Assembly (NCBI RefSeq): GCF_026210795.1
Contig: NC_089433.1
Coordinates: forward strand, 4,154,001 to 4,218,000
DNA: 64,000 nucleotides
Reading direction: 5' to 3'
Source: Rhizophagus irregularis
Taxonomy: Eukaryota
A program made the position numbers and the translations under genes. Below the pieces are notes generated by a model. It was not told the DNA's origin. It did not search any database and was given only the letters and a program-made list of their open reading frames with translations. Positions 2,851 to 57,000 of the stretch are shown here, in pieces (positions within the stretch are counted from its first letter, which is position 1; every line of letters begins with the position of its first letter).

Positions 2851-5800
2851 GTGTTATGGTATGTGTTATATTAGAAAATTGGATATGTACCGTATATGTA
2901 AAATATTAATAGCTAAATCTTTGAATGAATATATTAAATTTCTTTTATAGATTATACCCTAATAAAACTAGATCTACATATATATTGAAAGGTATTTTAA
3001 GGTGAAACCATTTTCATTTATTTTTACAAAATCTTAAGCCCACAATTTAAATCATCAAGACATCAACCCAATAAAATTCTATATATATCAGTAGGCAAAG
3101 ATATTTTGAAATATTGAAGGGACAAATATTATTTCTTGCAAAAATAGTGGTAAATATTCTAATTTATTATATTCATTTGTATAATATTTTAGTACTTATT
3201 TCTTTCGATTATAAATACTAGGAAAACACATTAAAATTAATTGTTCAAGTAATTTTTTCAAAAACTAAGAAAATATAATTATAAATAAATGAGAAGCTGT
3301 AAAAAAATACTATTATTTTGTATTGTGCGTTCATTCAACAAATATCTAGTTCTAACAAAGCCTCTACCATATATATTTGAAATTTTTATTTTATAACGTA
3401 AATACGAATAAATATCATCTCACAAAGTAACGAGTTTAAACTTATTTGATTCATAGAATTTACCTATTAATTCGACAATATTTTCTTCCAGTCTTTTAAG
3501 ATATTTTTCCTTAGCAACAATGTCTTTCTATATAACGCCATATTTTATTAAAAACGAAAGTATCTAAAAATAGTTAAAGGTAATTTTAGCCTTTGTAGAT
3601 TATGTAAGATAAACTCGCTGTATCACTTATCTAAATTTTATGATAATACGAAAAAAGTGTTTTCATATACAGTACACTTATTTATGTTTATTTATTCTAT
3701 AAAATCAATGAAATTCTATATTATTGGCAAATCATAAAAAGCTTTTCTAAGATATAAATTTGTTATCCCTGTTATCACTGTATATAATTTTCTCAGTTGT
3801 ATCAGAATAGTATCAGAATATTCTTCTAATAAATCTTGATAAAATCGTTTAATATTCTGTATTTTGATTCTAATATTATTATTTATCTGTTCATTAATAA
3901 ATTAATTAAATCCTGCAGGTAATTTAGAGTAAACCTATATTTAGTGAATATAATATTGGCATCATTAATAAGCTGAATACTCAAATCTTTATTTTGTTTA
4001 ATAAATTAAATCACCAAGAATACTTTTCTACGAAAAAATCTATTCACTTCAAATTAATTTACTGAAAATCAATAAACAAACTATATTCGCCTTGTACTGA
4101 CGGTACTGTGCATATTATTATTAACACCTCTCATTAATTCATGATAGAATACAGAAGAGATTTTATATTCTTGTTAATAATAATATATATCTTACTGTAA
4201 TTAATTTTACAATATAATTCTCTTAGTTATATCCATTTGTAGTTTTAAATTATTAGATATTAAAAGATCTAAATCATTTTCATACCATAAACTCAATATC
4301 AATCTAGGTAACACGAAGCTTAAACTATCTTGTTGAGGGCTGTATCAAAACCCATCAAGAATTTCATACATAATTCTGTTTACACAAAAATCATTGCTGT
4401 ACAAATTAGGAAGATTATGACTTTGAGAAATTTTATATAATAAACAGGAGTTTATAATTTTTTTTTTTTTGGCCCCTATTCTCTCTCTTCCTTTTTTATT
4501 TTTTGTATTATCAATCTACAACAGCAGCAATAATCATTTGTTATTTAAAATCATTTTTTTTTTATAAAGAAAAATTTTTTTTTTCATAACTTAACTCAAA
4601 ATCATAGTTATTGTCTATATCATATTAAAATAATTTTAATACAATCCAAGTCATTATAAAATATGATGTCAAATGATATCTTTAAAAAGGAGATCCATTA
4701 GAAATTTATTTGCAAATGGATCAATCGTGATATATAATAATATGATCAATGGAAACATTTTTGTTCAGGACATATTAGTTATAATGAATTCTACCCATGG
4801 TTGAAGACCCACTTCTAATAATCCATTGGAATGAAAATTCTTTAATCAACCCAATGGAAGCAAAACACCCTCATTGTAATGGTAAACATTTAATAGAATC
4901 AATGGGTACATTTCTATGCAGAACATATTCACCTACTGGAAGACCCATGCACACAAGTTGCAAAATCTCGTTGAATTTATTAAAAATTCTGGTGATGTTG
5001 AAAACACACCCATCGTATTTGCATTTAAGACCAGTGATGATTTCCTTATTCATATAACTTCAAAATTCATACACTAGACATATAAATAGCTACACTAATT
5101 CCTTTATCACATTTGAAAATTCTTTTAATTAACCAAATGGAAGCGGGTCTCTCTTATCCATATAACTTCAAAATTCATAGATATATTATTTTCGATACAT
5201 ACTTATTAGAGTTATTATAAAAAATATATATGTACGGTGTACCGTTTGGATGAAAAGTGCCAAAATTTCGAAAAATTGATTTTTCGAATTTTTGAATTTT
5301 AAAATCTCCTTATAAGGAGATTCTCCTTATAAGGAAAATCTCCTTTTATGGCAATGTAACGTTACACAAATATCCAAATAAGGAAGTTGGTGTCACCGAA
5401 TTTCCTTTTTTGGACGTTTTGTGTAACGTAGATCTATCCTATAAAAGGAAAATTTCCTTATAAGGCGATTTTAAAAGTTCAAAATTTCAAAATTTCGAAA
5501 TTTCAAAAAAAAATTACCATAAAAGGAATTTTTTTTAAGATTTTTGAAATTTTGAAATTTTGAAATTTTGAATTTGAAAATCGCCTTTTAAGGAAATTTT
5601 CCTTTTATGTAAGGGATCTACGTCGCACAATATTTAATTTATAATGCCAGCCAGAATTATAATCTCCTTATACAGAAATTTTGTTTAAAAATATTTTTTT
5701 AACAAATCTGGTGGCTAAACTATTTACCCGAATTCCGAAATCATGTGATTGTAATTCTGGCCGGAATTATAATTGATTTTATTAATTTTACAGTTACTTG

Positions 5801-10215: not shown

Positions 10216-12642
10216 TATAAAAATTATAAAAAATTTTATTAAAAAGAATATTAAATAAGTTCATTATATATTGTTTTCTTTTCATTAAAAATATATTTAA
10301 TATATCACTTAAATACAAATATTGAGTTATTAATAAAATCAGTAATAATTATTTTGTATAATTGAAAATTTGATAAAAAAATTAACAAAAAAAATTAAAA
10401 AAAATTAAAAAGCTTATTAAAAAAAATTAAAATGTTTATTAAGAAAAATTAAAAAGTTTATAAAAAAAGTTTATTAAAAAAAATATAAAATTTATTAAAA
10501 AGAATATTATATAAGTTTTATTATATATTGCTTTCTCTTCATTAAAAATATTAATATATCGCTTAAATACAGATATTGGAAAATGCTAGCCATTAGTAAA
10601 ATTGATAATTATTTTGTATAATTGAAAATAATTTGATAAAAGAAAACAAAAAAATTAAAAAGTTTATTAAGAAAAGTTAAAAGTTAAAAAGTTTTTTAAA
10701 AAAAATTAAAAAATAAAAAAATAAAAATTATTAAAAATTTTATTAATATAAATTTTATCATATATTGCTTTTTCTTCATTAAAAATATGTATTATTCAAA
10801 TACAAATATTAGAAGATACCAGCCATTGGTAAAATTGATAATTATTTTGCATAATTAAAAAATTAATATAATGCTAATAATAATAATAATAATAATTATT
10901 ATTATTAAAAAAAATTAAAAAGTTAAAGTTTATTAAAAGTTTATTATTTTGATGATTGCATTCTATTGGATGGATATAGCTTATGATAATTTTTTATATG
11001 GTATATGAACTTAATATTAATAAAGTATATATAGATCATTAAAAATAAAAAATTAAAAGTTTATTAAAAAAATTAAATTTTTTTAATTAATAAAGAATAT
11101 AAAAAATTTATAATGCTGGCCGGAATTAAGTGATCGCCATGTAAATTTCCTTTTTTGGAGTATTTGTGAAACCAAATTTCCAATTTTTTGCGAGAAGCAA
11201 AATTTCCTTTTTTGGAAATTTGTGTAACGTTACATTAATATTTTTCTTAAATCCGGCCAGGATTACTCCAATTTTTGGTAAAAATAAATATTAACACATG
11301 ATTTCGAATTCGGGTAAATAGTTTAGCCACCAGATTTGTTAAAAAAATATTTTTAAACAAAATTTCCGTATAAGGAGATTATAATTCTGGCTGGCACTAT
11401 AAATTAAATATTGTGCGACGTAGATCCCTTACATAAAAGGAAAATTTCCTTAAAAGGCGATTTTCAAATTCAAAATTTCGAAATTTCAAAATTTCAAAAA
11501 TCTTAAAAAAAATTTCCTTTTATGGTAATTTTTTTTTGAAATTTTGAAATTTTGAAATTTTGAACTTTTAAAATCGCCTTATAAGGAAATTTTCCTTTTA
11601 TAGGATAGATCTACGTTACACAAAACGTCCAAAAAAGGAAATTTGGTAACACCAACTTCCTTATTTGGACATTTGTGTAACGTTACATTGCCATAAAAGG
11701 AGATTTTCCTTATAAGGAGAATCTCCTTATAAGGAGATTTTAAAATTCAAAAATTCGAAAAATCAATTTTTCGAAATTTTGGCACTTTTCGTTCAAACGG
11801 TACACCGTATATATGTATATTATGTAATAGTTTCTAATAGGCAGTATTTCATTCACTTAATAATATTACCAGTTAGTTATATATTTATAATGGGTTAAAC
11901 ATAAATTCATGTCTCTGACTAAAAAAATTATTCCAAAATTTTGTGTCAAGAATTTCGACAAATAATTACTTTTAATATTAGTTACATTTACCAACTCCTT
12001 AAGGAACCAGAAGACGTTCCTCAATGAACGAAAACACAAAACTAGAAATACGTTTGATTATCTGCATTACGATTATGTATTTAATTATATATTCTTTATT
12101 ATTTAAATAACAATGATAACTTCTTATCAACTTTATTAACAACTATAACAACACACTTTAACACTTAAAGAATATCAAACCGCCTAGAGTATTTATATTG
12201 GGGAAAAAATTGGGTACTTGCAAGTTAATGTCGGGTTGGAGATTCTGTTAAATACTTTTTTTTAACAATGCAAAAAAAATTTGTAGATATAATTTTACAG
12301 CGCCATTCGACAAATACACATTATCAAGATTACCCTTCAGTTTACATTTTGGTAAATATATATACCATCACTATTATTTCATATTAACGATCAAGACTAT
12401 ATTAAGATTTTAAGGATATATAATAGTGTAATATAATATTAGAGAATTTTGTTTGTTACTGTATAATAAATAATTTATTTATTTATCAACTTAAAGTTGT
12501 CTATTCTATAGAATATAATTGGTTATCAAAATTAATAAGAACTTATTGTTTAATAAAGATTTAAGAACAGTAATAAGTAATTAAAAATAAAAATAATGAA
12601 AGTTGAAATTATTTATTTTTCATAGAGTAAAGAACTGTTTGA

Positions 12643-14436
12643 ATAGGAATTGAAAAAAATGAAATTAAAGCATTTAAATTATATAATGAAGCAGCTGAAA
12701 AAGAATATATTGATTCAATTAATAATCTTGGATATTGCTATCAACATGGAATAGGGACTAAAAAAAATGAGGTTAAAGCATTTGAGTTATATAATGAAGC
12801 AGCTGAAAAAGAATATATTGATTCAATTAATAATCTTGGATATTGTAATCAATATGGAATAGGAACTGAAAAAAATGAAATTAAAGCATTTGAGTTATAT
12901 AATGAAGCAGTTGAAAAAGAATGTATTGATTCAATTTATAATCTTGGATATTGTTATCAACATGGAATAGGAACTGAAAGAAATGAGGTTAAAGCATTTG
13001 AGTTATATAATAAAGCAGCTGAAAAAGAATGTATTGATTCAATTTATAATCTTGGATATTGTTATCAACATGGAATAGGAACAGAAAAAAATGAAATTAA
13101 AGCATTTGGATTATATAAAAAAGCTGTTGAGAATGATGATATTGATGCAATATATAGACTTGCAGAATGTTATGAATATGGAATAGGAACTGAAAAAAAT
13201 GAAAATGAAGCATTTGAATTATATAAAAAATCAGCTGAAAAAGGAGATATTGGTGCAATATATAGACTTGTGGAATGTTATTGTTATGGAATAGGAACTG
13301 AGAAAAGTGATATTAAAGCATTTGAATTATATAAAAAGTTGGCTGAAAAAGGAGATATTGATTCAATATATAATCTTGCAGAATATTATTATTATGGAAT
13401 AGGAACTGAAACAAATGAAATTATAGCATTTAAATTATTTAACAAAGCAGCTGCAAAAGGTCATATTGATTCCATATATCAACTTGGGGAATGTTATTAT
13501 TATGGTGTAGGAACTGAAAAAAGTAAAATTAAAGCATTTGAGTTATATAATGAAGCAGTTGAAAAAGGGCATGTTATTTCAATATATCAACTTGGAAAAT
13601 GTTATCAACATGGAATAGGAACTGAAAGAAATGAGGTTAAAGCATTTGAGTTATATAATAAAGCAGCTGAAAAAGAATATATTGATTCAATTTATAATCT
13701 TGGATATTGTTATCAACATGGAATAGGAACAGAAAAAAATGAAATTAAGGCATTTGAATTATATAAGAATGCAGTTGAAAAAGGAAATATTGATGCAATA
13801 TATAGACTTGCAGAATGTTATTATTATGGAATAGGAACTGAAAAAAATGAAACAAAAGCCTTTAAACTATACAATAAAACTGCTGAAAAAGGTCATATTG
13901 ATTCAATATATAATCTTGGAAAATGCTATCAATATGGAATAGGAACTGAAATAAATAATTTTAAAGCATTTGAATTATATAATAAAGCTGCTAAAAAAGG
14001 CCATATTGATTCAATTAATGATCTTGGATATTGTTACCAACATGGAATAGGAACTGAAAAAAAAGAAAGTAAAGCATTTGAGTTATATAAGAAATCAGCT
14101 GAAAAAGGAGATGTTTATTTAATATATAATCTTGCAGAGTGTTTTTATTATGGAATAGGAACTAAAAAAAATGAAATTAAAGCATTTAAGTTATATAAAG
14201 AAGCTGCTGAAAAAGGTCATCTTACTTCGATGAATAATCTTGGAGAATGCTATCAATATGGAATAGGAACTGAAAAAAATGAGATTAAAGCATTTGAATT
14301 ATATAGTGAATTAACTGAAAAGGGCCACATATATTCAATATATGATCTTGGATATTGCTATGAGAATGGAATAGGAACTGAAAAAAATGTAATTAAAGCA
14401 TTTGAATTATATAAGAAATATGAAAATAAATTATAA
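12643..14436 (+). pseudogene. 5'-truncated Sel1-like repeat array (about 16 repeats of 36 aa), paralog of the gene at 29870-34576
   Basis: Open frame from 12643 (TGA immediately upstream; no ATG until near the 3' end). The first ~270 nt are identical to 31683-31954. No kinase exons seen directly upstream. Confidence 0.8.
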
Positions 14437-15633
14437 ATTTATAATTATTTCCTTGTCTTGCTACTTGGCTCAATAGTATTTAATATATGGTGTAATATTC
14501 TTAAATAGACTATTTAGTGAAGATGAATTCCGAATAATAATAGTACATTATTAATATAACAATAACTGAATATTTAAATCAAACTCAAAATAAAAACATG
14601 TTACATATTAGCTATATCCTGGCTAATTAGGAATATATAACTATTCCAATTAGCTATATTTATATGCTATTAAATATGTTCTTTTCTGATTAAATTTACC
14701 ATCACGACTTTAAATTAAATGAACCCAAGAAATATGTATTATTTTTTATTTTATAAGATTAATATATTCTCAGGCAATTTTAATAAATTGTTCAAAAAGT
14801 TGCCCGAAATTTCTTTAATTATTCTATTTATTGATAACTGATAAGTATAATATTTGGTAACGTAAATCTACCAGATTGAAGCTATTTGGAATCTATTTGA
14901 CCCTACATACGTGTTTTATTGTTACTGAATTTATGTGATTCGAATATTAATATATTTACAGTGTCAAATAACAAAAAGAACTAATAAATTCGTTCATTTG
15001 ATTTTTTAGTGTAGTTATTTATTAATTTATATATTGTAAATATTTTTCTTTAAATTTACTGGTAGCATTATCATTTTCTGCCTCTAATATTTTTAAATAT
15101 TGTAAAAAAATCTCATGATAATGGGAAGAGCACATCGCAAGTGAAATTGTAGGCTCATTTTCTTCTCAAAGAATAGTACCGACTGTTGACAAAGTTTTTA
15201 GGCCAGCAGGTGACAGCACATGAAAAATAAATCTCAAAACTGAATTATTAACTGAACTGTTCATTGTGAAATAAGAGGCAGGGCTATAATTTTAATAAAA
15301 GCAGTATTTACATAAAGTAGAGTTTGAACTCGAACCAGGGTGAGTCAATTCAAGTAAGTCAGTTGAATTAGGACTCGTGTTAAGACAAAACTGAAGCTAT
15401 AATATTGGCCAACCTCTCACCTCTAACAGCAATACAGGCTAACATTATGATAATTCTGGCCGGCATTACCGATCACATGCCAAAAATTCTTGATGAGTGC
15501 GAGTCCAAGCTTTAAAATAAAGCCTATGGCCTGTATTCTTAAATAAAGATTCTTTAATAAAGAAGGTTCTTCTATCTGTTAATACCATTCTTGAACTACT
15601 GCTACTTGTAAGTTGTAAAGTTTGTATTAGTTA

Positions 15634-16129
15634 CACAGTGAAATTCGATAAACCGGATCTTTGATAAACTAGATTTGGGCTTAAACCGGACTTTTTTGCT
15701 GGAACCAAATACTGTAGTAACCAAATCACGTATATTAAAATAAGTTTTGATATACCAGAGTTTACTAGTAAAAGCTCGATATTCGCTATAACGGATCAAT
15801 TTTCTAACAAAAATGATTTGATAAACTAGATCACGTGATCATTAACCAATAAAATTTAAGTAACGTGATGCGGTAAATCTTAATTTTGGCCAGAATTATA
15901 AAAATCTTAATTCCAGCTGAAGTTATGTATTACTTATATCTTCAATTAAAAATATTTTATATTCATTTCATGAACTCTATGACTTAAAACTAAGATGAAA
16001 AACTTAAATCGGCGTATATTAGTTTTATTAGCATGAAATTCAGTATAATAGATTTTCAGTATATCAAAATTTTTTTGCTATACCAGATATCCCGGAACTG
16101 ATAGATCCGGTTTATCGAATTTCACTGTG
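15634..16129. mobile_element. MITE with 27-bp perfect TIR
   Basis: CACAGTGAAATTCGATAAACCGGATCT ... AGATCCGGTTTATCGAATTTCACTGTG, flanked by TAGTTA on both sides. The TIR core resembles pogo-type CAGT.AAA.TCGATAA ends. Confidence 0.85.
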
Positions 16130-16969
16130 TAGTTAAAAAAAATCATTTAAATATGACACAGCAATATCTAGAGATAGTGGTAATTCATTCGTATAAAAAT
16201 GAATAATAAACTAAGTAATGGAGTGCTTCTATCTAATATACCGTATCTCATAATATGAAATTTGTATAAAAATGTCCAAATAACTGAAGTGTTGAGTTCA
16301 TTAAACTTAAGCGTAAGAGGGGGCATAAAAAATACAAAGTATCATATGTTTCAATATTTTTCGCAACAATTAATCCAATATTCCAATTAATTGCTCATTT
16401 GGCAAATAATTTAATTCAAGAATTTTTCGAAAAGGGCAATCGAGTCGAATGTACTGACTGTACTTGATGTATTAATGTAGCAATATATAAAATAAATATG
16501 GATTTTACTTTCTTATTTTAAACTGATTATAAAGTATAAGAATATTATTAATATCTAAAAATTAGCGAAATCAAATGTAAATAATCTGATGTATATTAAT
16601 AAACTAAATAGACAAAAAGTTTCTAAAATTTCATATATAATCATTTTATAGTGGCATATTATTCTATTATTTATTTTTATTTTATGTAAAGTCGGAAGGA
16701 ACTATCTAAGAGAGCATTAATCCATGAGAATAGGCCCAACATTAGTTCCATCATCCATTCCATAGAACGGATCCTACCTAATTGTTATATATAGACTGGT
16801 CCAACAACACGACCGATGAAGGAACAGGTACCATGAAACCGAGGACGAACAAAACTAAAAAAGGAGTTCTAGTCTATCATGCGTATTTTTCTTTTAACTA
16901 TTACTAGCTATTGTATGTAAATACTGTCATATACAAAATGATATATTATAAAAAAGGTCCGTAAATGTT

Positions 16970-17080
16970 TTTTTGTGGGTGTATATAAATTTTGGATGTC
17001 TATATAAGTTTTGGGTGTCAAATAAAATTTGGGTGTCTATATAAAAATTGGGTGTCTTTTGTTTAAAATTTGGGTGTACT
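16970..17080. repeat. About 6 tandem copies of a 19-22-bp unit immediately downstream of the ORF stop
   Basis: TTTTGGGTGTCTATATAAA-like units. Confidence 0.85.
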
Positions 17081-17081
17081 A

Positions 17082-18923
17082 TTAGTTAAAAGGGTAAATA
17101 TCCGAATCAGGCGTAGGTGGTAAATCATTTTTCTTTCTCCGAGGTCGCGCAATAGGTCTCTGGGGTGAATCAATAATAGTTCGACTAGGACCAGGTGGAG
17201 GTGTATTACAATTATCAACGGTATTCGTAGAAGGGGTTTTCATTTTAGACCAAGGTCGTGCTATTTGTCTCAGGAGTAAATTATTAATAGGTTGATTAGA
17301 ATTAGGTGAGGGTGTGTCATCATTAGCCAAAGCGTTTAAACGAGCTTTTTCTTTTGCACTAGGATAAACCATGGACGGCAATGTAGGTTTGACAAGCGAT
17401 AAAACGGGTGTCGAAACAGCGGTAGAATTTTGACCAGAAGCCAACCTAAATCGGGCACTTTCATATCGAGAAACGCTCAAAGCGTAATCTACAAAAGGAA
17501 CAATTTGAGGTTGTGTGGGGTAACTAATGATTTGAGGAGGAGATGGTTGTCTAATAATAGGAGGGTGTAAATTTTTGCGATCCATATAATTATTATAAAG
17601 CCTCTTGGCCTTCAAATAGCCATATTGACATTGAGGAATTGTGGACAAATCATATCGCCTTCTAACTTTATAAGCGAATAAATTAATGTTATATGTTTGG
17701 AAATAATAATTCCGAGCATCACCACTAAAATCAACAGGTAGTGTGGGTAAAATTTTCTTGAGTTTATTACGATTATTAACGCGTCGTCGCCAATTCTTGG
17801 CACGTTTCCGGGTAAGTTGATCCAATACTTTATCCTCCTCAGATTTCTCATATGAGAGATCCCGTTCCACAAGATGAGATACTTTTTTAAATACTGTAGA
17901 ATTTTCTTTTAATAGAAAGGGTTTACTATGATATAAGTATTCTTCATGTTTGATGATCGATTCTTTTAAACGATTCCATCTTTTGACTTGTTGTGGTGTT
18001 CTTTTATCGTAAAACTCAACATTTTTGTATTCTTTGTAAAAAGGTCTTGTTGTAGATTTACCTTTACGATTAGTTGTGATAGGTTCCATCACCTCTTTTA
18101 AATCGGAATTGTTCTTTCCTTTCCATTCATTATAACGTTTAATAATTACATTATATTTTAAACCTAAACGTGTTGAGTGAACTTCTTTCCATGGATTAAA
18201 ATTAACATTTTTGTAATCTTCTCCTCTCCGTTGTGTGGTATTTGATCTAAACCCCGGTACAGGAGTAAAATGTTGATTGCATTGCCATTGATTATTTGGA
18301 AGTACAAATGCCGCTGGTTGGGTACAAGTATTACTACAGCGAAAATAAAATCCAAGATAGATCATGTGAGTTCCAGAACTAAACCGGATATAAGTTTTGG
18401 TTTGTCTATTTTTAGCCGAATAAGAAAGTCTATTTTTAATCGCTATTAATTTTTCTATTAATAGTTGGCGTAAACGTTTAAAATACTTTTTCACAATATC
18501 AGGTGAAAATTGTCTGTTGATAGAAAATATAAATGCAAGATATGTCCCTATTAAGTAATTAAGATTGATCTTTTTACTAGTTGAGTTGAAGATCCTCTGA
18601 TGATCATTAAGCATATCAATATCATTGGTGTAGACGTTGAAAGAATTTTTCTTTGTTAAACAAAGATCAGCATTTGGGTGTAACTCCATAAGGAAGTATC
18701 TACTTTTTTTGGTGTTATACAAGGTACCACTACCTCGTGTATCGCTAACTATATATGGATTGAGCTTGTGAGTTTGAAACGAATAAGCAAAAATATTACG
18801 TATTTTGTGTAAAGATTTCTTGTTGTAACCATCCTTATCAAGAACGGTCACGTGCGATTTAGAAACAGAAGCGTCAGAGGGGTTTATTTTCCCAAAGGAA
18901 GGTAAAATATTCAAAGGTGTCAT
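17082..18923 (-). CDS. 613-aa basic hypothetical protein with a C-x3-C-x14-C-x2-H motif and a Pro-rich disordered C-terminus
   Basis: Uninterrupted ATG-to-stop ORF, K/R-rich, containing CSNTCTQPAAFVLPNNQWQCNQH. No RT (YxDD), APE or DDE motifs recognised. Confidence 0.85.
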   Translation of the reverse strand: MTPLNILPSFGKINPSDASVSKSHVTVLDKDGYNKKSLHKIRNIFAYSFQTHKLNPYIVSDTRGSGTLYNTKKSRYFLMELHPNADLCLTKKNSFNVYTNDIDMLNDHQRIFNSTSKKINLNYLIGTYLAFIFSINRQFSPDIVKKYFKRLRQLLIEKLIAIKNRLSYSAKNRQTKTYIRFSSGTHMIYLGFYFRCSNTCTQPAAFVLPNNQWQCNQHFTPVPGFRSNTTQRRGEDYKNVNFNPWKEVHSTRLGLKYNVIIKRYNEWKGKNNSDLKEVMEPITTNRKGKSTTRPFYKEYKNVEFYDKRTPQQVKRWNRLKESIIKHEEYLYHSKPFLLKENSTVFKKVSHLVERDLSYEKSEEDKVLDQLTRKRAKNWRRRVNNRNKLKKILPTLPVDFSGDARNYYFQTYNINLFAYKVRRRYDLSTIPQCQYGYLKAKRLYNNYMDRKNLHPPIIRQPSPPQIISYPTQPQIVPFVDYALSVSRYESARFRLASGQNSTAVSTPVLSLVKPTLPSMVYPSAKEKARLNALANDDTPSPNSNQPINNLLLRQIARPWSKMKTPSTNTVDNCNTPPPGPSRTIIDSPQRPIARPRRKKNDLPPTPDSDIYPFN

Positions 18924-19366
18924 AATAATAAAACTATTTGGTATACTATTATAAAATACTCTCTAAAAGCAACAGGGTATATTAAGGAGAACTTTCCGTC
19001 GAGGCCACCAAGTGGTCCTCTCTCCTTGTTTACTAACAATAAAGGTTAAAAAATAAAATAAAAATTTGTTTTACTGCGGAATTTTATAAAATCTGACGGA
19101 AAGGGGAGAGAGTTTTTTTTTCTGGCATATTATTCTATATTAATGTTGCAGATTAACGCTACCAAATATGGAATGCACGTGATCTGGGTTGATCTTCCGC
19201 AGACTGATCTGAGGCACAACATTAATATTTAACCATCTAATGTTGTTGGATAATTTATACATAAGGTATGGCGAAAATATCTGTTTATAAAACACTATAA
19301 GGATCGTTGCATTAATTACCGTAAATATTGTCAAAACGCAAGATAATATGAACAATCTCAAAAAAG

Positions 19367-20389
19367 TAGTGCTTCGATCTGGATGAAATGAAAACCATTA
19401 TCCGGATTATACAGTACAAAAGGATTATATCCGGATTGGGTTTACACATAAAAATTTTTTGACTGCGGACTAAATGATGATAGTCTATAATAAATTCGTA
19501 TAGCATTTCAAAATGTTTATTAATAGAAAACTTCCCAAAAATAATCATTGAAATCTGCAAAAAATACTAAAAATAATTTAAGAATAAATATTAGCTATGA
19601 AATAACAGCAATTTATTGACATTACTTTTTTTAAAAACAATTTTATAGTTCCAACTTAACTGTTTTTAACCTAACTGTTTATTTAACGTATCTCACTCGT
19701 TCTTAAAAAGTTTTTAAAGTAAATGTATGATAGAGAGTCTCTTAGGATTAGAATTAGAATTAGTTTAAGGATAAACTAAAAAAATCTTTTACGTAAAAAT
19801 TTATGATATTTTTTTCCGATTCTAATTTTTATCGAAATTCATTTTTTTAAAGCTAGAGGAGGATGAGGGATCTTATTGCCTCATTGGATAAAAAGCATTT
19901 ACAATAAATACAGTTTAAGTCGATTTGACTAATTTATTTTAAAAATCAAAATCGGCCAGTTAGTTTGATAATTTCTAATTATTCATTGATCTGAATTATT
20001 AAATTTCAACATTTTTTTTTAAAAAAAAAATTACCAATAAATATTTTAAAAAATCATATTTGGACATACCTAGATTTTTCTAAAAAATCTGGACATTAAA
20101 CAAAAAATTAAGTTGAATCTCAATGTATTATTTTTACAGTTTTTACTTATTAAAAATTCAAAGAAGTGTGGCGAAACACGTTAAAAATATATTAGAATAT
20201 AAATTTGTTTAAAATTATAATTTATAGTAACAAATCAACAAATCAAAAAATAGTTTTGGTTCATGTATTGTATTAAGGCGTTTTATTTGAGAAAAAATCC
20301 ATCCGGGTTTCGGTTCAAGCCGGATATTTTTCATTCGGTTTATGAACCGGATGAAAGCGGATCAATCCGGATAAATCCGAGTATCATTA
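19367..20389. mobile_element. Degenerate hAT-like element remnant
   Basis: TCCGGAT/CCGG subterminal clusters at 19370-19440 and 20300-20380, with TAGTG.../...CATTA ends. No clean TSD. Confidence 0.35.
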
Positions 20390-29869: not shown

Positions 29870-32800
29870 ATGGCAAGCAGTTCCAATAAAAAAAATATTG
29901 ATACAGACAAATTTATTCAATGGGTCGAGGGTGGCGTTGCTGAAGATTATATCAATTGTCATGTTTATAGCGAATTTAAAGATATTAGATTTATAGGTCA
30001 TGGAGCATTTGGTAAAGTATATAAAGCTACTTGGAAAAATTCAAATACTATTGTCGCATTAAAATCTTTTGAGAGAAATAATCTTATTATAAAAGAAATT
30101 GTCAATGAGGTACTGTCGTAATGTTTGTTAGCAGTTACTAGCTAGTAATACTGATTTATCAAATTTCTATGTATAGATAAAATTATTGCATAAAGTTAAT
30201 CTTCATGTAAATATTATTCGGTTTTTTGGTATCGCTAAAAGAGAAAGTAAGTACTAATTATACAAATTTAATTGAAAGATCAAATATAATGATTTAAATT
30301 AATTTATCCATTTTTTATTTAGACAATGAAGATAATATAGATCCAACTTCAAATTATTTGCTTATCCTTGAGTATGCAGATAGTGGTACATTAGGAAATT
30401 ATTTGAAAGATAATTTCAGTAAATTAGATTGGAACGTAAAATTGCAATTTGCAATTCAAATTGCTGATGCAGTCTCATGTATACATCAAAACAATATCGT
30501 TCATTGTGACTTAGTAAGTATTCTATGAACTTCTGATTTTTATTTTTAAATATAAATATACTAATTTAATGTTGCTTTATTAATAAATAGCATTCAGATA
30601 ATATATTAATTCATCAGAATATAGTAAAATTAGCAGACTTTGGACTTTCACGTAAATTAGCTGAAGTATCAACTCAAAATCATATATATGGAAAAATAGC
30701 TTATATTGATCCACAACATTTTCAAGAACAAATAGATAAAAATAATAAAGTTGGTTATCACTATAAACCAAATGAGAAATCAGACGTGTATAGTGTTGGT
30801 GTACTTCTATGGGAGATATCATCTGGGGAAAAACCATTTAAATCATATAATTGTTTTTATCACCAACCAAAATTAATGTTGGAAATTTCAGAGGGAAAAA
30901 GAGAGACACCCATTCCTAATACGCCAAATGATTACATTAACATTTATACAAGTATATTATAAAATATTTGTTTTGATTTACTAATATTAATTTACTAATA
31001 TTTATTCTAACTTATTTTCACAATTTATTTTCTTTTTTAGAATGTTGGAAAAATAACCCAAGTGATCGACCAGATATGCAACAAGTATTGTCAAATCTAA
31101 AATTAGTTAATTTGAATATAATTGACACAAACACTTTATTAATCAATGAAAACGATACTATAATTGCTATTGAAAACAATAAGTCACTCGGTAATGATAA
31201 TATTACTAATAATCAATTAAATTTTAATAATGAAGCTAATGAGCAGATTAATAATATTGATTTAAATAATGAAAATATCATTAATGAGTTATTGTCACTA
31301 TATGAAAATGCTATTCAAAGAGGAATTAGTAAAGAAGATTTTATTCAACTAATTAAGCAACACATAATAATGAAAAATAAAAGCAAAAGAGAAATATTTA
31401 ACTATTTATTAGATAACATGAATAAGCTACAAAATATTTTTCTATTAGCAATTTTTTATCATTATGGAATCATAACTAGTGCAAATGAAATTAAAGCATT
31501 TGAATTATATAAAGAAGCTACTGAAAAAGGTCATAATAATTCTATGAATTATCTTGGAAATTGTTATAAACATGGGATAGGAACTGAAAAAAATGAAATT
31601 AAAGCATTCGAATTATACAATGAAGCAGTTGAAAAGGGTCAAGTTAATGCAATAAGTAACTTAGGATATTGCTATCAATATGGAATAGGAATTGAAAAAA
31701 ATGAAATTAAAGCATTTAAATTATATAATGAAGCAGCTGAAAAAGAATATATTGATTCAATTAATAATCTTGGATATTGCTATCAACATGGAATAGGGAC
31801 TAAAAAAAATGAGGTTAAAGCATTTGAGTTATATAATGAAGCAGCTGAAAAAGAATATATTGATTCAATTAATAATCTTGGATATTGTAATCAATATGGA
31901 ATAGGAACTGAAAAAAATGAAATTAAAGCATTTGAGTTATATAATGAAGCAGTTAAAAAAGGGCATGTTATTTCAATATATCAACTTGGAAAATGTTATC
32001 AACATGGGATAGGAACTGAAAAAAATGAAATTAAAGCATTTAAATTATATAATGAAGCAGCTGAAAAAGAATATATTGACTCAATTAATAACCTTGGATA
32101 TTGTTATCAACATGGAATAGGAACTGAAAGAAATGAGGTTAAAGCATTTGAGTTATATAATAAAGCAGCTGAAAAAGAATATATTGATTCAATTCATAAT
32201 CTTGGATATTGTTATCAACATGGAATAGGAACAGAAAAAAATGAAATTAAAGCATTTGGATTATATAAAAAAGCTGTTGAGAATGATTATATTGATGCAA
32301 TATATAATCTTGCAGAATGTTATTATTATGGAATAGGAACTGAAAAAAATGAAAATGAAGCATTTGAATTATATAAAAAATCAGCTGAAAAAGGAGATAT
32401 TGGTGCAATATATAGACTTGTGGAATGTTATTGTTATGGAATAGGAACTGAGAAAAGTGATATTAAAGCATTTGAATTATATAAAAAGTTAGCTGAAAAA
32501 GGAGATATTGATGCAATATATAATCTTGCAGAATATTATTATTATGGAATAGGAACTGAAACAAATGAAATTAAGGCATTTGAATTATATAAGAATGCAG
32601 TTGAAAATAATCATATTGATTCAATGAAAGATCTTGGATATTGTTATCAACATGGAATAGGAACCAATAAAAATGATATTAAAGCATTTGAATTATATAA
32701 AAAAGCTGTTGAGAATAATCATGTTGGTTCAATGAATGATCTTGGATATTGTTATCAACATGGAATAGGAACTAAAAAAAACGAAATTAAAGCATTCGAA

Positions 32801-34576
32801 TTATATAAAAAAGCTGTTGAGAATAATCATATTGATTCAATGAATGATCTTGGATATTGTTATCAATATGGAATAGGAACTGAAAAAAACGAAATTAAAG
32901 CATTTGAATTATATAAAAAAGCTGTTAAAAATAATCATATTAATTCAATGAATGATCTTGGATTTTGTTATCAACATGGAATAGGAACTGAAAAAAATGA
33001 AATTAAAGCATTTGTATTATATAAAAAAGCTGTTGAAAATAATCATATTGATTCAATTAATAATCTTGGATATTGTTATCAACATGGAATAGGAACTGAA
33101 AAAAATGAAATTAAAGCATTTGGATTATATAAAGAAGCAGTTGAGAATGATTATATTGATGCAATATATAGACTTGCAGAATGTTATTGTTATGGAATAG
33201 GAACTGAAAAAAATGAAAATGAAGCATTTGGATTATATAAAAAGTTAGCTGAAAAAGGAGATATTGATGCAATATATAATCTTGCAGAATATTATTATTA
33301 TGGAATAGGAACTGAAACAAATGAAATTAAGGCATTTGAATTATATAAGAATGCAGTTGAAAATAATCATATTGATTCAATGAAAGATCTTGGATATTGT
33401 TATCAACATGGAATAGGAACCAATAAAAATGATATTAAAGCATTTGAATTATATAAAAAATCAGCTGAAAAGGGAGATATTGATGCAATATATAGACTTG
33501 TAGAATGTTATTGCTATGGAATAGGAACTGAAAAATGTGATATTAAAGCATTTGAATTATATAAAAAGTTAGCTGAAAAAGGAGATATTGATGCAATATA
33601 TAATCTTGCAGAATATTATTATTATGGAATAGGAACTGAAAAAAATGAAATTAAAGCATTTGAATTATATAAGAATGCAGTTGAAAATAATTATATTGAT
33701 TCAATGAAAGATCTTGGACACTGTTATCAACATGGAATAGGAACTGAAAAAAATGAGATTAAAGCATTTGAATTATATAAAAAAGCTGTTGAGAATAATC
33801 ATATCGATTCAATGAATGATCTTGGATATTGTTATCAACATGGAATAGGAACTGAAAAAAATGAAATTAAAGCATTTGAATTATATAAAGAAGCTTCTAA
33901 TAAAGGTTATATTACTTCAATGAATGATCTTGGATATTGTTATCAACATGGAATAGGAACTGAAAAGAATGAAATTAAAGCATTTGAATTATATAAAAAA
34001 GCTGCTGAGAAAGATCATATTATTTCAATGAGTAATCTTGGATATTGTTATCAACATGGAATAGGAACTATAAAGAATGAAATTATAGCATTTAAATTAT
34101 TTAAAAAAGCAGCTGCAAAAGGTCATATTGATTCCATATATCAACTTGGGGAATGTTATTATTATGGTGTAGGAACTGAAAAAAGTAAAATTAAAGCATT
34201 TGAATTATATCAAGAAGTTGCTGAAAAAGGTCATATTGATTCAATTAATGATCTTGGATATTGTTATCAACATGGAATAGGAACTGAAATAAACAAAATT
34301 AAAGCATTTAAATTATATAAATTAGCTGCTAGTAAAGGCCATATTGACTCAATGAATAATCTTGGAGAATGCCATCAATATGGAATAGGAACTGAAAAAA
34401 ATGAAATCAAAGCATTTGAATTATATAATGAATCTGCTGATAAAGGTCACATTTACTCAATATATAATCTTGGATATTGTTATGAAAATGGAATAGGAAC
34501 TGCAAAGGATGAGGTTAAAGCATTTGAATTATATGGGGAATATGAAAGTAAATTATTATTACCTATAAAACATTAA
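29870..34576 (+). CDS. Tyrosine-kinase-like non-RD protein kinase fused to about 29 Sel1-like repeats (~1465 aa)
   Basis: Exons 29870-30109, 30177-30246, 30323-30513, 30591-30951 and 31041-34576 splice in frame. Motifs GHGAFGKV, VALK, HCDLHSDN, DFG, YIDP, SDVYSVG, CW...P..RP, followed by 108-nt repeats. Confidence 0.92.
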
Positions 34577-43179: not shown

Positions 43180-46100
43180 ACGGTTTCCGGAAAAAATGAA
43201 CTCGTTACTGAAGGAGAAAAGGAGTAAGAAAATATTACAAAAAGTCAACAAACTTATTAAATAATACACCTTTTTTTCTTACAAAAATCACTTTTTCGAC
43301 GCCAAAAACACTTATTTCATATACCACTTGTATATAAAAACATGTCCGTCAGTAACGTCTCTAGTAAAAGAAGAGCCAGAAACTTGTCAAAAGGAGCAGC
43401 CTCCTATTTAGACAAATATATCGTCAACGATACTTACTTTCCATATGATAAAGAACAGAGTAACGTCAATACAAAGCTACAAAGGCTAGATAACACTTTG
43501 AAAGACACCCCTGAAACCTCTCCTAACGATATGGAGGATATTATAGAAACTTTTACGAAACTTCTCAACTCCCTGCGCAAAAAGATAATCACGTGACACT
43601 ACGTCTGATCACTCAAATCAAACGCCAATAGAAGGCCAGAATCCGGACATTTCCACTCCTGGAGGTCAGCAGGCAAAAAGAGAAAGAAGTAGCAAACAAT
43701 GATAATTCCGAACCTAAATTCAGATTCATCGCCACATGTCAATACTATCTTTGAAACCTACATTCCGAGGAACTCCTTCCATAAAGACCAAACCACACAC
43801 GAGATTTTTGACCCGCCTTTATTACAGAAAATGATTTTGTTAGGGTATATACACGAAGTTACATATCATATCAATTCTTTGTAATCCAATTTAAAACACT
43901 TGAATAAAAAGAGCAATACATCAATCGTCCCTAAAATCGATAAGATTTTACGATTACATAGACACTAATGTCAAGATCCTTGCAAAGTCCAAATTTGACA
44001 ATGTCGATAACTGTGTAATTAAGGTATTGGATATACCAATCAACTACGACGCAAAGCTCATCGTACAACACCTAGCAAAACAAAATAGGATTCATCATAA
44101 TGAAATTATTAAAACAAACAAACCCAGATTCCACAACAACCAAACAATACCCAAGCCTCAACATCCAAAGTTAATTTTAGGCTGTCTAGAACATCCATAC
44201 GTAAACCACAATATAAACAATTGCTGATCAGATTTGAACACGAAAAAGCGGTCCAATATCTATATGAAAATGATATCTGGAACCTCTTCATAGAAAAAAA
44301 CTTCTTAGCCAGATTCATACCCGGTAATCCCAAACATTATCCTGAATATGAAAATAGAACATCATGTCATTACAAAATAATGGGAAATGCGGATGCCAGA
44401 AACCTAGCACCTGTTATCACTCATCATCTTAAAGAACGTACATGCACCTTTATACAAACAACAAGAAACTCTTGCACTAAATCCTCTTACGTATAAGTAG
44501 CAAAAGATGATTACCCTCACGATACAAAACAAGTTCAGAAAACGGACTTATTCGGATCAACTCTATACATATACCCAAAAAACCATGAAGGAAATTCTTG
44601 CTTTGATTCATCTGCGGCAGCCTAAACACACAAACCAACATTGAGACACAAAGTTGCTTCAAATAATCAAAAGATTTACAAAAAAAGCGTTCTTACGAAG
44701 ACAAAGAACCAGACTCACCATAACACCAGAGCTCTCCAACAAATATAATCACATCTTCATTACAAGTGTATAACCACTTCAATTAAAAACATCCAACATT
44801 GAGAAGATAACATCAAACACCACTTCAAATCCTCATTAGTAGGCTATCTAGACGATACCACTTGGTTTGGATCGTCTATCCAACAAATCAACCACAAATT
44901 ATCAATCGCTAATTCTTTTTATAAATTTACCAAAATCCAAATTAACTTTCACAAATACAAAATCCTCACAACTCAACATCATGACACCCAACTATAGATT
45001 TAAATATTAACGACCAAGATGTCGCCGCTATTACTGTATATCGTTCAACAAACAAGGTTAGGTCTTTATATTAACATTACAGATCGCCAACAATAAACCA
45101 TCAACAAGGGTGTCAGCATAATATACTCTCACTATATGACCATGAAAAACAAAAAAAATTGAGCCACGATCATATAGCTTATATTATCAACAAATAATAA
45201 TCCCTCAAATTGGAATAATATACACAATTTTGACGTACAGACAGTACCAATACCTTTAACACCTCTCAAAAAGCCGTTCAAATTACGTCTACATCTTCCT
45301 ACCAGCACAGCAGACAACGTTATATACAACAACCTTTTTCCACATATCGACAATTTCTTCGATATTCAAGTCAAAATCCCAACTCAATATATTATCTGCC
45401 CTTTTTAACACGCCCTGTTGCTTTACAAAAATTAGACATTTTAACCCAAGAAATCTGGTACCCACCATATCACATAATATACACGAATTCAAATGTTCTA
45501 GTGAACACAAATTGTCCAACAAAAAGATTATCTCCCCTTATTTTATTGCTACTAAACCTTTACATACTTAAAACACATAGCTTATGAAAATTTTTTAATT
45601 TTGAACAACATTAATCATCCCTTTCGACGGTCATACCGTAAGTAATGACGATATATCCTCCTCGTTACGACTCGTCCATCGACAAATTCGCCAAGCTCTC
45701 ATTTGTAAAGAATACTTGAAAGACCAACTAGTTGAAATTTCGACACAATTTTCGTCCGCATCTAATTTCACCATCTATACAGATGGATCTGTTAAACAAA
45801 TCGGCACTCAACACTTATGGCTGGCTACAATGCTACCCAACAACTTCAAAGTTGAATTCAAAGGCTCCACTGTATTCTTACTCTCATCCACAAAAAGTGA
45901 ATCACCACCCTTCCTTACAATAGTACCTGCACCATTTATACGGACTCAGCGAATTGTGACAAAAATCTCCGATCTTCAGCCCTAGATGACGTTTAAAACA
46001 AAACAATTTCTCATTTGGAATTAATTTTCTGGATTTAAATATAGAGAACCGCCACCTATACATTAACTTAAAAGTCAAACATACGATAACATACCTTACA

Positions 46101-47375
46101 ACGAACGAGCTGATTGGCTGGCTAAAAAGGGATCTAAGGGATCTAACATACGAGACCCTATTATTGTGAATTTTAAATTTTTCCATCAAGTTTTTTTAGG
46201 GTTTATCAAATGGAACAACATATACGTAATAGATCACAATGTCCGACAATGGAGCAATAACGTTATCCAACCACGTAACTTCAACTCGATTATTAATAAT
46301 TCGGCATTGAAAAACATCGAACGGCATATCCTCGAAGGCGTGATTGATTGGGAATTCACTAAAATATGGATCAATTATAACCATTCAGATTCACCGACGA
46401 ATTTACACCTTTCACGTTCACGCACTCTCGTATCAAGAAATATAACTTCATTTACAACAGTTGGCATCCTCCCACGCAATTATCCTCGTCTTTACCCGTT
46501 AGGTCATGTACCATGTATTGAATGCTCCGCACATCATGACTGTAATGATCACATTGGACTTTGTACCACCCTTCCGCAAAATTACTCTTTTAATGTCTAA
46601 ATCTAAAAAACTTCCTTTGGACACTATTTTACGATATGCTAACAGCTCAACCTTTGACCTAGAACAAAGAATAAATGCCTCCACAACCTGATCCCGGCTG
46701 AATTAACAGCCATATTCTACAACTACATAGGTAAACGTAAGGATCGCGTACAAGCTTTCAAACATTTTATCTATGAAACTATGACCGTAGTATTTGGAAC
46801 GACCGCGCTACTGCATTTAAACAGTGGGAATTAACGCGAAGTACTATAACGCGCAAGAAAAAGAAACGTTACCACCACTATTTCAACAAACCCCACTGGA
46901 TTCAAATAATTCTCGGTCCATCACCGAGTCGCATACCCCTAATCTATTATCGTCCTGTACGGCTACGTCTCCATATGACCGTCATAAGTCACGTATAGAT
47001 TTTACTGCCCATATTAGATGTACTTCAAGCAACTTTTTACACTCGGTTCTTGGGAATCACATAAAGATAATTTACTTTTTGATAACATAAATTTATTCAT
47101 TTTTTTTATGATTTTTCTTTCACTCATGTTTATCCTCCTACAACTTAAAATAGTATTTTTATTTTCTCACCTCCTTTTTTCTAACCTTAGTGTCCAAAGG
47201 TCGGAAGGTGTCCTTAGGATACCTTTATTCCTTTTTCATTTATTTTCTACCAAGATGACATCGCCATGTAGCGCTTTGGTTATTTGTGATTAGAATTACT
47301 TTTGATTTAGTTTTAATTTCTGTGTAATTTGTACTAATACCTTGTTCATTTTGAACAATAAAATAAAAATAAAAT
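43180..47375 (+). mobile_element. Decayed LINE (non-LTR retrotransposon) with ORF1, RT and RNase H remnants
   Basis: ORF1 starts at 43342 with a knuckle remnant (FICGSL) near 44605. RT motif VGYLDDTTWFG near 44838, RNase H FTIYTDGSVK near 45766, Cys/His motif CIEC...DH..LC near 46510. The 3' tail is AATAAAATAAAAATAAAA. Many frameshifts and deletions; the 5' boundary is approximate. Confidence 0.88.
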
Positions 47376-48025
47376 ATACTGCAATATAAGTAAAGGGAAA
47401 GTAATTAAAATTCACTTTACGCTCCATACCTTTTTGAGGGAAGTAACTTAAGTAAAATGTGACATTACGCTACTCACTTAACCATACGTTACTTACTTTT
47501 ATATTTCACTAGGTAATTTCAGCCCTTACAATACAACTACCCCAGCCGGCAATTTTTGCACAGATGTCGCATATCACATAATATCAATCCCGTGATTTTG
47601 AAATTTGCTTTGGTTGACACTACAACTTTAGTCTCCATTTTACGCGTCTCTAATATACAAGTTTAAATAAAAAACTTTTTTATTTATGAAATTCGTTAAA
47701 TTTTCAATAAAACACTTGTATTTCGTTAGTTCATACATACTTATCTTAACTTTGGGAATGCTTTTCTTTAATAAATTACAATATACAATCATTGAACGGA
47801 TAGACAAAAATTCGCACGTAAGTTTCTTTGCTTTTATATTGATTTTGATTCTGGCTATAGTGCTTATAATTTTTTTCTTGCTTTTTTTAATTACGAAATG
47901 TACATTTGGTTTATTGGAATTAAATGTTATATGGACTTATTATCTAACACAGAACAGTATCATTAATTGTTACGGTATTACAGCATAAATACTAAATAAA
48001 ATCAAATTTATTCAATTATTTTTGA

Positions 48026-54036: not shown

Positions 54037-57000
54037 CTATATTTCGCAGTCCAAACATTCAGAATACTTTGGAAGATCATTTGTAAAGGAATTAAGTAAT
54101 TGTGATGTATAAACAGCTTGTGGATGAGTAATTGATTGTCTTCTTTCCTCAAAAAATGTTTTTTTGTATTCTTCTACTTTTTTAAATTGCTGCTCAATAT
54201 CATAATGTTGCTGTTTTTTTTCTCCAAATAACAAACTTGAATCTGGCACATAGGATTCATGAAATAACTGAATAAATTCTACTATTTCAGTTGCCTTTGG
54301 TCTGTAATCTGGATTTGAATTCCAACATTTCTTCATTAATTCAGTATAACATTTTGGTACTTCTAGCTCATTTATTTCAGGTCTAATTCCCTCACAGATA
54401 TCTAATGCTAACATTTCATTATGCGCACAATTGAAAAAAGGTTGGTTTCCTGTTGCTACAAAATACATAATCATACCAAAGCTATATACATCTGCTGTTT
54501 GAGTATAAGGTTCTCCTCTTAACACTTCAGGAGCCACGTAAGGCATAACTCCATAAAGTTTTGTTTTGTCTGTATTGTCAACTCTTCCACATAATCCCAT
54601 ATCTGATATGCACATTAAATTATAATTATCCAAGGTAATATACATTGATAATATATTTCCTGTATGAAGATCACGATGAACCAGTTGTTTTTCATGAATT
54701 TCTTCAAGACCAGTAATAATATTAAATAATGTATTTATTTTATATGACCAGTCAAATTTACTATAGTGTTTGTTTACCCAATTATATAAACTTCCACCTT
54801 CTGCATAATCAAGAACCATAATATAGTCATTTGTGTTAGGATTTTGAGATAACCCATATATTGAAAGAACATGATTAAGTTCTTTGATGGAATATCCTTT
54901 AATCTATTAAAGTATAATAATAATTATTATTATATTGAAAAGTTTTAAATTGGATAAAAAATTTCATACCTCATTTAAAAATTCAATAGTAATATTTTGT
55001 GAATTGTATAATTGTTTTAAAGCAACTTTTTTCTGATTTCTTGAATATTCATATTCATTATAAGATGATGGTCCATCTTTCCATATTGCTGAATATATTG
55101 TAGCAAACCCACCTTTACCTATTTCTTTAATATTACTAAATCGATTGTGTGGTATCCATTCAAATATTGTATCATCTGCATTATTAATTTTTAATTGTAT
55201 CTCTCGTATTAAATTATCAATTTTTATATTTTCACTAGTCCAGTTTGTAAAATTTCTTTTTAAATCATTTATTTTACATGGTTTACACCATTTATAATAA
55301 GTATCTGTATATTCTTTATCACATTTTTCGCAATATTTATTTTCAATTACTATAATATAATCTTTTGTATTAGGATCTCGAGATATTCCATATATATTAC
55401 TAATTGAATATTCTTCAACCTATTAACATTAAATGTTATTATTAAAAATATATATATATGAATAACATGATTATTTAAATAGAATTTATGGAAAATTACC
55501 TCATCAATAATATTTTGTGAGTACTTTAAAGTAACTCTTAATTTCAGTCTTCTTATCTGATCTTTACTATAAAGATTATCATAATATAAAAAATCATTCT
55601 TCCATATTGCCGAATATATTCTAGTAAAATCATCATTTATTTTCTTAATATTACTAAACTGATTGTATGGAATCCATTCAAATACCATATCCCATTTGCT
55701 ATTAATCTTCAATTGCATATTTTGGATCAGATTATCAATCTTATCGTTATTACTGGTCCAGTTTTTAAAATTTAATTCTAAATAATTTACTTGACATTTC
55801 TTACACCATTCAAATTTAAAATTATTTTCTGTATATTCTTCACCACAACTTTTACAACACAAATCATATTGAAAAACAATAATATATTTTAAATCTTGGT
55901 TTTGAGATATTCCATATACTGGATTATCATTTCTTGATAAATATTTTTTAACCTATAAAGACAAAAAAAAAATAAATTATAATATTTTCCAAAAAAAAAG
56001 AAATTAAAAGTTTTAATACCTCATTTAAGAATTCATCAATATTTTGTAAATTATATAATTTCAACGAAACTTTTTTATTTGATTCTCTTGCCCATTTCTT
56101 ATTATTATGAAGTAATGGACCATCATTCCATACTGCTGAATATATTATTGTACAATTAGTTCTATTTATTTCTTTAATATCATTAAATCGATTGTATGGT
56201 ATAAACTCAAATATTATATCTATAAAAAAGTTAATTTTCAACTGCTTTTGTTTGACTAAATTATCAATTTTTTCATTTCCACTCCAATTAAATAAAAATT
56301 TTTTCAAATAATTTTTGTAGCACAATAAACAAATATATTCTTTAATTTCACCACATTTTTCGCATATTCTACTAAATCCATTTTCAAGTACTATAATATA
56401 ATTTTTCGTGTATGGATTTTGAGAGATTCCAAATATTTTACCATAATATTTATTTAAGTCTTCCTTAATCTATTAAAGTATAAAATTTAATTATTATTAC
56501 CATATTAAATAAAGTATTTAAATTAAATAAAGAAAAATATACCTCATTTAGTAATCCACTATATAATTTTAAAGCAACCTTTATATCCTGCAAATTTCTT
56601 GTATATTCATTTTTATATTTATCAAAACCTAATGGACCATCATTCCATATTGCTGAATATACTTTATCAAAACCTTCTTCACCTATTTCTTTAATGTCAT
56701 TAAACTGGTTGTATGGTATCCATTCAAATATAATATCATCTAGTTTATTAATTTCTAATTGCATTTCTTGAATTAAATTATCAATTTTTTCATTTCCACT
56801 GGTCCAGTTTGTAAAATTTTGTTTTAAATTATTCGTTTGACACGATAAGCACCATTCATAATTTGCATCAAATCTACCTTTATATTTTTTATCACATTTT
56901 TTACAATATAACTTTGGAAAAACTATAATATAGTCTCCCATATCTGGATTTTGTGACACTCCATATATATTAAGACATTTATCAAACTTAATCTATTAAA

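What the first reader, a model, noticed from the sequence alone, without database searches (positions are those of the whole stretch)
16652..19138. Retroposed mobile unit encoding a single intact orphan protein and no reverse transcriptase
Seen: a 2,455-bp insert bounded by a perfect 16-bp TSD (TGGCATATTATTCTAT), with an A-rich (AAAAT)n-like 3' tail, no TIR or LTR, and no introns in an intron-rich genome. It has a ~200-nt 5' UTR, a ~410-nt 3' UTR and an intact 613-aa K/R-rich ORF with a C-x3-C-x14-C-x2-H motif. Established: a long TSD plus A-tail is the signature of target-primed reverse transcription by LINE proteins. Inference: this is a protein-coding non-autonomous retroelement (or an endogenised RNA replicon) mobilised in trans, whose protein may bind or package its own RNA. 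The perfect TSD and intact ORF suggest recent insertion.
Basis: partly seen in the sequence, partly recalled or inferred. Interest (0 to 1): 0.9.

Follow-up and report, generated by a model that had tools for sequence, protein, structure and literature searches.

The report
RT-free retroelement with its own protein
This 2.5-kb insert in a mycorrhizal fungus genome carries the marks of RNA-based copying and one intact gene but no copying enzyme, and belongs to an old repeated family that likely borrows that enzyme from other retrotransposons while likely using its own protein, which matched no solved structure, to bind its RNA.

Summary
Observation confirmed: perfect 16-bp TSD, 2,455-bp insert, A-rich tail, intact 613-aa basic ORF, no RT. 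The ORF is not an orphan. It has 38 close relatives (35 named R. irregularis) and 189 representative hits down to ~25% identity, including R. clarus, R. diaphanus and Glomus cerebriforme; UniRef names five of them DUF8211. The CCCH motif is kept in 52 of 65 aligned members. The core folds confidently (pLDDT 86.6) and matches no solved or viral structure. Public contigs show several copies, other copies leaving at the same 3' end into other flanks, and diverged subfamilies that keep both terminal motifs. One 1,656-nt contig holds a diverged ORF plus the shared 3' motif, with no room for RT. No gene model has EN-RT behind the ORF. A decayed RT-bearing LINE in the window ends in the same 16-nt tail but has a different ORF1. 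Best reading (0.7): an old family of protein-coding, non-autonomous non-LTR retroelements mobilised in trans. It works like HAL1, but descent from a LINE ORF1 is not shown. Not obtained: empty site, TSDs of other copies, the partner, protein function.

The parts
16652..16667 (.). target-site duplication, copy next to the element's 3' end
   Evidence: four contigs of run X8 leave the window at 16667 into other flanks, so the 16-mer is target, not element
16668..16685 (-). A-rich 3' tail of (TAAAA/TAAA) units
   Evidence: its 16-mer recurs in the window only at the end of a decayed LINE, 47358
16686..17081 (-). 3' UTR; 16843-16950 is shared with diverged subfamilies
   Evidence: joints and loose ends; no unusual fold, z 0.54
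16976..17057 (.). 19-bp minisatellite, about 4 copies, variable among copies
   Evidence: deletions in a related contig
17082..18923 (-). 613-aa ORF, DUF8211-related basic protein; conserved core, disordered Pro-rich tail
17874..18818 (-). conserved core (residues 36-350), predicted two-part alpha/beta fold without a match
18270..18338 (-). CCCH motif (C196, C200, C215, H218), predicted zinc site
   Evidence: all four kept in 52 of 65 rows
18924..19122 (-). 5' UTR starting G-A9, with GC-rich helices 19112-19105/19025-19018, 19103-19095/19000-18992, 19027-19021/18990-18984 and a hairpin between; possible pseudoknot
   Evidence: the helix strands lie in the two stretches shared with other elements, 18985-19026 and 19060-19119
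19123..19138 (.). target-site duplication, copy next to the element's 5' end

Best explanation
This is one copy of a repeated, reverse-transcriptase-free element of Glomeraceae fungi with a single intact gene, likely copied into new sites by the enzyme of an autonomous LINE acting in trans. Shown: TSD, tail, ORF, absence of RT, several copies, deep protein family, terminal motifs shared between subfamilies. Inferred steps: (1) the unit is transcribed as one ~2.45-kb RNA, with the structured 5' UTR serving transcription start or translation; (2) the basic CCCH protein binds this RNA in cis, doing the job that ORF1 does for a LINE, and so helps it compete for the LINE's EN-RT protein; (3) that protein nicks an AT-rich target, primes on the (TAAAA)n tail and leaves the 16-bp TSD. 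The likely partner type is the RT-RNase H LINE of which a decayed copy with the same tail lies at ~43340-47377.
For: TPRT marks and polarity: tail on the ORF strand next to the A-rich TSD end. Multicopy: summed contig depth over the body is about 4-6 times the single-copy flank, over the 5' end 7-12 and the 3' end 17-36 times in 4 runs (the tool warns that this is no copy number, used as rank only). Four X8 contigs leave at 16667 into unlike flanks. Three further full-length 613-615-aa copies at 87-89% identity. No RT behind the ORF: a 1,656-nt contig of X18 holds a subfamily ORF (P0018 group, 54-61% identical) and, by equal depth, the shared 3' motif; two searches for long fused forms found 0 of 3,796 and 0 of 2,329 candidates (weak by the tool's own note); the best-scoring representatives listed are at most 606 aa; of 233 proteins held only P0004 and P0210 have an RT motif, and there RT lies before the translated 5' UTR. 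Of 29 distinct contigs outside the large NCBI assemblies, 22 are 1.3-2.4 kb, 7 are over 15 kb, none between. Protein under constraint: invariant residues at 22-40% identity; 24 of 52 ORF variants synonymous against 21-34% expected, p 0.046 to 6e-5. R. irregularis proteins fall in at least three separate lineages (quick tree). Poly(A) RNA-seq run X19 holds contigs of a related copy from 16691 to 19026. The decayed LINE shares the 16-nt tail, and its ORF1 remnants are unlike this protein.
Against: No empty site: no joint across the insert among 15 shown of 25 joints or 6 of 6. TSDs of other copies not seen; only one contig shown leaving at the 5' end (19119; 677 and 71 loose-end rows hidden). 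Beyond the low-complexity tail there is no 3' UTR likeness to the decayed LINE (75 of 300 shuffles as high), and that LINE has no TSD found. An ORF1 separated from ORF2 by a stop need not give fused gene models. RNA binding rests on charge and the CCCH motif only; no conserved acidic set points to an enzyme, but an enzyme is not excluded. Transcription is likely, not shown: contigs only, and DNA can be in such runs.
Confidence: 0.7

Rival explanations
1. HAL1-type deletion derivative: autonomous LINEs with this protein as ORF1 still exist in these genomes, and this copy is a version that lost ORF2 but kept both ends.
For: Basic zinc-finger protein behind a 5' UTR is the place and character of an ORF1 (established knowledge); ends are more abundant than the body; tail shared with a LINE; HAL1 arose several times in mammals (PMC5753468, passages).
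Against: No Pfam ORF1-type family hits any of 65 members; no ORF1p fold match; no ORF-then-RT gene model; the second subfamily seen is also short; contig sizes stop at 2.4 kb; the one LINE in view has a different ORF1; the loose ends I translated belong to family subfamilies, not RT.
Confidence: 0.2
2. Ordinary retrocopy of a lineage-specific host gene family: mRNA copied by LINE machinery without being a selfish unit.
For: TSD and tail also mark retrocopies; AMF genomes hold many high-copy orphan families (PMC8647823, passages); some database gene models are spliced.
Against: No large insertions in the ORF in any run laid; the 'spliced' models drop conserved core, as predictions over broken copies do (inference); the tail is a LINE-like repeat, not poly(A); UTR motifs are more conserved than the ORF DNA across subfamilies; many lineages per species.
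Confidence: 0.06
3. Endogenised RNA replicon, satellite or virus segment that was reverse-transcribed by a LINE.
For: Many distant relatives sit alone on ~2-kb contigs; structured 5' end.
Against: No match in BFVD, PHROGs or IMG/VR contigs; no ribozyme in Rfam at E<=5 or by descriptor; genomic copies in four named species; LINE-type tail.
Confidence: 0.04

Closest known systems
HAL1 (half-L1) elements
   Same: Non-autonomous, one protein, no RT, moved by a LINE in trans (PMC5753468, passages read).
   Different: HAL1 encodes a recognisable L1 ORF1p; this protein matches no ORF1 family or fold tested, no parent LINE is seen, and the family reaches ~25% identity across genera.
EKA family of Blumeria graminis
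   Same: Large fungal protein family tied to non-LTR retroelements in an obligate biotroph (PMC4641428, abstract read).
   Different: EKA derives from truncated ORF1 of identified LINEs; here the ORF is full length in a defined unit with its own UTRs and TSD.
Eg-R1 / BG_Non-LTR elements of Blumeria
   Same: Non-autonomous, apparently Pol II-transcribed fungal retroelements with conserved 5' regions (PMC6022598, passages read).
   Different: They encode at most a short peptide and lack a genomic A tail; this one has a 613-aa conserved protein and a tail.
R2-derived SIDEs and retrozymes
   Same: RT-less units with structured RNA ends (PMC3414825, PMC4918200; search listing and start of abstract only).
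   Different: Those are non-coding and carry HDV or hammerhead ribozymes; none was found here.
DUF8211 (PF26638) proteins
   Same: UniRef gives this name to 5 relatives found here; PF26638 is precomputed on P0029.
   Different: The window protein itself has no precomputed Pfam hit, the Pfam copy scanned here gave no DUF8211 hit on any protein, and no paper with the term was found.

Membership tests
Non-autonomous non-LTR retroelement | TSD of about 7-20 bp, no LTR or TIR | tested here: met
Non-autonomous non-LTR retroelement | 3' A-rich or repeat tail on the sense strand | tested here: met
   18-nt tail
Non-autonomous non-LTR retroelement | no own RT or endonuclease | tested here: met
Non-autonomous non-LTR retroelement | dispersed copies with shared ends, each with its own TSD | tested here: inconclusive
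   copies and shared 3' end seen; TSDs of other copies not visible
Non-autonomous non-LTR retroelement | 3' end shared with an autonomous partner | tested here: inconclusive
   16-nt tail shared with one decayed LINE, nothing beyond
Non-autonomous non-LTR retroelement | empty site in another isolate | tested here: inconclusive
   none seen in 8 runs, which may be one strain
HAL1-type ORF1-only derivative | ORF homologous to the ORF1 of an autonomous LINE | tested here: inconclusive
   no Pfam or fold link and unlike the one LINE in view; host genome not searchable
Autonomous LINE | RT domain in the element | tested here: not met
SINE | tRNA/5S/7SL-derived head, non-coding | tested here: not met
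   no tRNA, no such Rfam match, 613-aa ORF
Ribozyme-bearing retroelement (SIDE, retrozyme) | HDV-like or hammerhead ribozyme | tested here: not met
   Rfam E<=5 gave none; HDV descriptor 0 hits, hammerhead core word only inside the ORF; a new ribozyme type is not excluded
Processed retrocopy | intron-bearing parent gene with the same UTRs | tested here: inconclusive
   no intron-sized insertion among rows shown; genome not searchable
DUF8211 / PF26638 | hit to the Pfam model above its cut-off | not testable with these tools
   no DUF8211 hit even on P0029, which carries it precomputed; link rests on homology to five proteins so named

The most novel reading that the evidence does not exclude
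An ancient, self-standing class of LINE satellites: ~2-2.5-kb RT-free retroelements whose protein has a new zinc-containing RNA-binding fold that was never part of a LINE, kept under selection across Glomeraceae to capture host LINE machinery in trans, with a conserved 5' pseudoknot. It would explain the DUF8211 family and part of the unclassified repeats of AM fungi.
Probability: 0.4. Interest if true: 0.8.

Novelty: new variant of a known kind. Interest (0 to 1): 0.6.

Why it matters
Protein-coding, RT-less retroelements are known mainly as ORF1 leftovers of LINEs. A deep family with a protein of unmatched fold would widen that class and give a testable case of a parasite of a parasite. In R. 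irregularis 24% of the genome is uncharacterised repeat (PMC8647823, passage) and curated libraries keep only families with a transposition domain (PMC11075540, PMC11952901, passages), so such elements would be dropped from TE libraries and counted as orphan genes.

Tried and rejected
No host genome is held, so copies could not be listed. Metagenome contig scan gave 3 weak loci; L003 is bacterial and L001 has no such ORF, L002 not read: rejected as chance. Prokaryote and viral contig scans: nothing. Pfam, NCBIfam, PHROGs, PDB sequence: nothing meaningful for the family. First model (pLDDT 55) gave no fold match; the core model gave best Z 3.7, no Foldseek hit at E<=0.001; the rows covered mostly residues 204-315 of the model and the two parts were not folded apart, so a new fold is not shown. 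ESM Atlas: no usable hit, best 0.88. Homodimer prediction: no answer, score 0.00, alignment not used. Flanks have no cover in X18 and X19; noted only, a hole proves nothing. HDV reading of the 5' pseudoknot: helix order fits loosely, but P3/L3 and J4/2 do not. P0004/P0210 as a true RT fusion: rejected, the linker is this element's 5' UTR translated. Insertion into a gene: no long frame crosses the empty site. Replitron or DNA transposon: the repeat is target-derived and no transposase fold was found. Careful tree did not finish; quick tree used. Nine literature searches showed no description of this family; supplements, TE libraries on GitHub and Repbase were not seen and may hold it as an unknown repeat.

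Full report
Observation. The insert is as described: identical 16-mers at 16652-16667 and 19123-19138, unique in the window, enclose 2,455 bp of higher GC (0.34 against 0.27) with one 613-aa ORF on the minus strand, a 199-nt 5' UTR, a 414-nt 3' UTR and an 18-nt A-rich tail. The tail lies on the ORF strand and abuts the A-rich end of the TSD, the polarity expected from target-primed reverse transcription (established knowledge). No RT, TIR or LTR was found.

The protein is not an orphan. The close search gave 38 hits of 5,214 candidates, 35 named Rhizophagus irregularis and 3 unnamed. The exhaustive search gave 189 representatives at E<=0.001; those listed are at most 606 aa. Look-ups of 30 proteins name R. 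irregularis, R. clarus, R. diaphanus and Glomus cerebriforme, five as DUF8211 proteins. Three other full-length copies are 87-89% identical. In a 65-row alignment the four CCCH residues are all kept in 52 rows, with invariant N100, R165 and F181 and no conserved acidic set. R. irregularis members fall in at least three lineages on a quick tree. No Pfam, NCBIfam or PHROGs family explains it. The core folds with pLDDT 86.6 but has no match in PDB or BFVD (best Z 3.7), which does not prove a new fold.

Copies and ends. Eight public runs, all contigs, were laid on the locus. Summed depth over the body is about 4-6 times the flank in four runs, and higher at both ends (rank only). Four contigs of X8 leave at 16667 into unlike flanks. 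Contigs of X16 and X18 share only 18985-19026 or 19060-19119 and then diverge. These two stretches carry the strands of three GC-rich helices of the 5' UTR, which 1 to 5 of 3,000 dinucleotide shuffles match; folding z is -2.06. No known ribozyme fits. Loose ends inside the ORF that I translated match diverged subfamilies, so the excess at the ends may come from them rather than from a LINE. The same filled junctions stand in X3, X8, X9, X11 and X15; no empty site was shown. X19, on record as poly(A) RNA-seq, holds contigs of a related copy between 16691 and 19026; X18 (RNA by guess) holds exact pieces. Among 52 ORF variants taken from the 40 rows shown in each table (of 288 and 189), 24 are synonymous against 21-34% expected; changes were scored one base at a time.

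Is it a LINE ORF1? A 1,656-nt contig carries a subfamily ORF (54-61% identical) and, by equal depth, the shared 3' motif, leaving no room for RT. Two searches for long forms found none (weak). Only P0004 and P0210 bear RT, placed before the translated 5' UTR, best read as gene models over an insertion in or beside an RT (inference). Of 29 distinct contigs outside the large NCBI assemblies, 22 are 1.3-2.4 kb and none lies between 2.4 and 15 kb. In the window a decayed LINE at about 43340-47377 has an RT remnant (tblastn E 7e-5; Pfam RVT_1 E 1e-4, under the cut-off) and motifs that I read from recall as RNase H. It ends in the same 16-nt tail, a word found only at these two places. Its ORF1 remnants are not hit by the family profile. 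Beyond the tail there is no likeness and no TSD was found for it, so it is a candidate partner type only.

Mechanism. Most likely (0.7) a protein-coding non-autonomous retroelement: unit RNA, coated in cis by its own basic CCCH protein, is copied by a LINE EN-RT that primes on the tail. Anatomy, copy number and constraint are shown; transcription, RNA binding and the partner are inferred. Rivals: ORF1-only derivative of a living LINE (0.2), retrocopy of a host family (0.06), endogenised RNA replicon (0.04).

Comparison. It works like HAL1 (PMC5753468, passages) and recalls EKA (PMC4641428, abstract) and Eg-R1 (PMC6022598, passages), but membership of HAL1 needs a parent ORF1, which was not found. 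AMF repeat studies leave much unclassified and keep only domain-bearing families (PMC8647823, PMC11075540, PMC11952901, passages). PMC5640933 (passages) does not mention Rhizophagus. Nine searches showed no description of this family; supplements and repeat libraries were not seen. One earlier scan note on a look-alike in another genome ended as a retrocopy; here the family evidence points away from that.

Verdict: real feature, new variant of a known kind, interest 0.6; 0.8 if the protein proves never to have been a LINE ORF1 (probability 0.4).

Noticed in passing
window 43340-47377 (+): Decayed, internally deleted LINE with ORF1 remnants, RT remnant, RNase H-like and zinc-finger-like motifs, a hairpin-rich 3' UTR and the same tail as the finding.
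   Followed up: partly
window 19024-19065 and 16673-16685: The U-rich middle of the 5' UTR is complementary over 13 nt to the element's own tail and resembles the reverse of the decayed LINE's end (1 of 300 shuffles, one of seven comparisons, low complexity); unexplained.
   Followed up: partly
run X18, 1,796-nt contig matching 19060-19119: The 5' motif lies in the middle of a deep contig with about 800 nt on each side: read-through, or the motif inside another transcript.
   Followed up: no
window 15600-16215 and 19912-20065: Very high-copy short repeats flank the single-copy insertion site; possibly MITEs.
   Followed up: no
window 31076-34576 and 12641-14435: Long Sel1-repeat arrays (108-bp units), one as a 1,166-aa ORF; kinase ORFs at 54037-54819 and 63021-63854.
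   Followed up: no
window 5204-5747 and 11295-11839: Inverted repeat of about 545 bp at 96.5% identity around an AT-rich tandem region; possible long-TIR DNA transposon.
   Followed up: no
protein P0029: Gene model with two family units in tandem, suggesting nested or adjacent insertions.
   Followed up: partly
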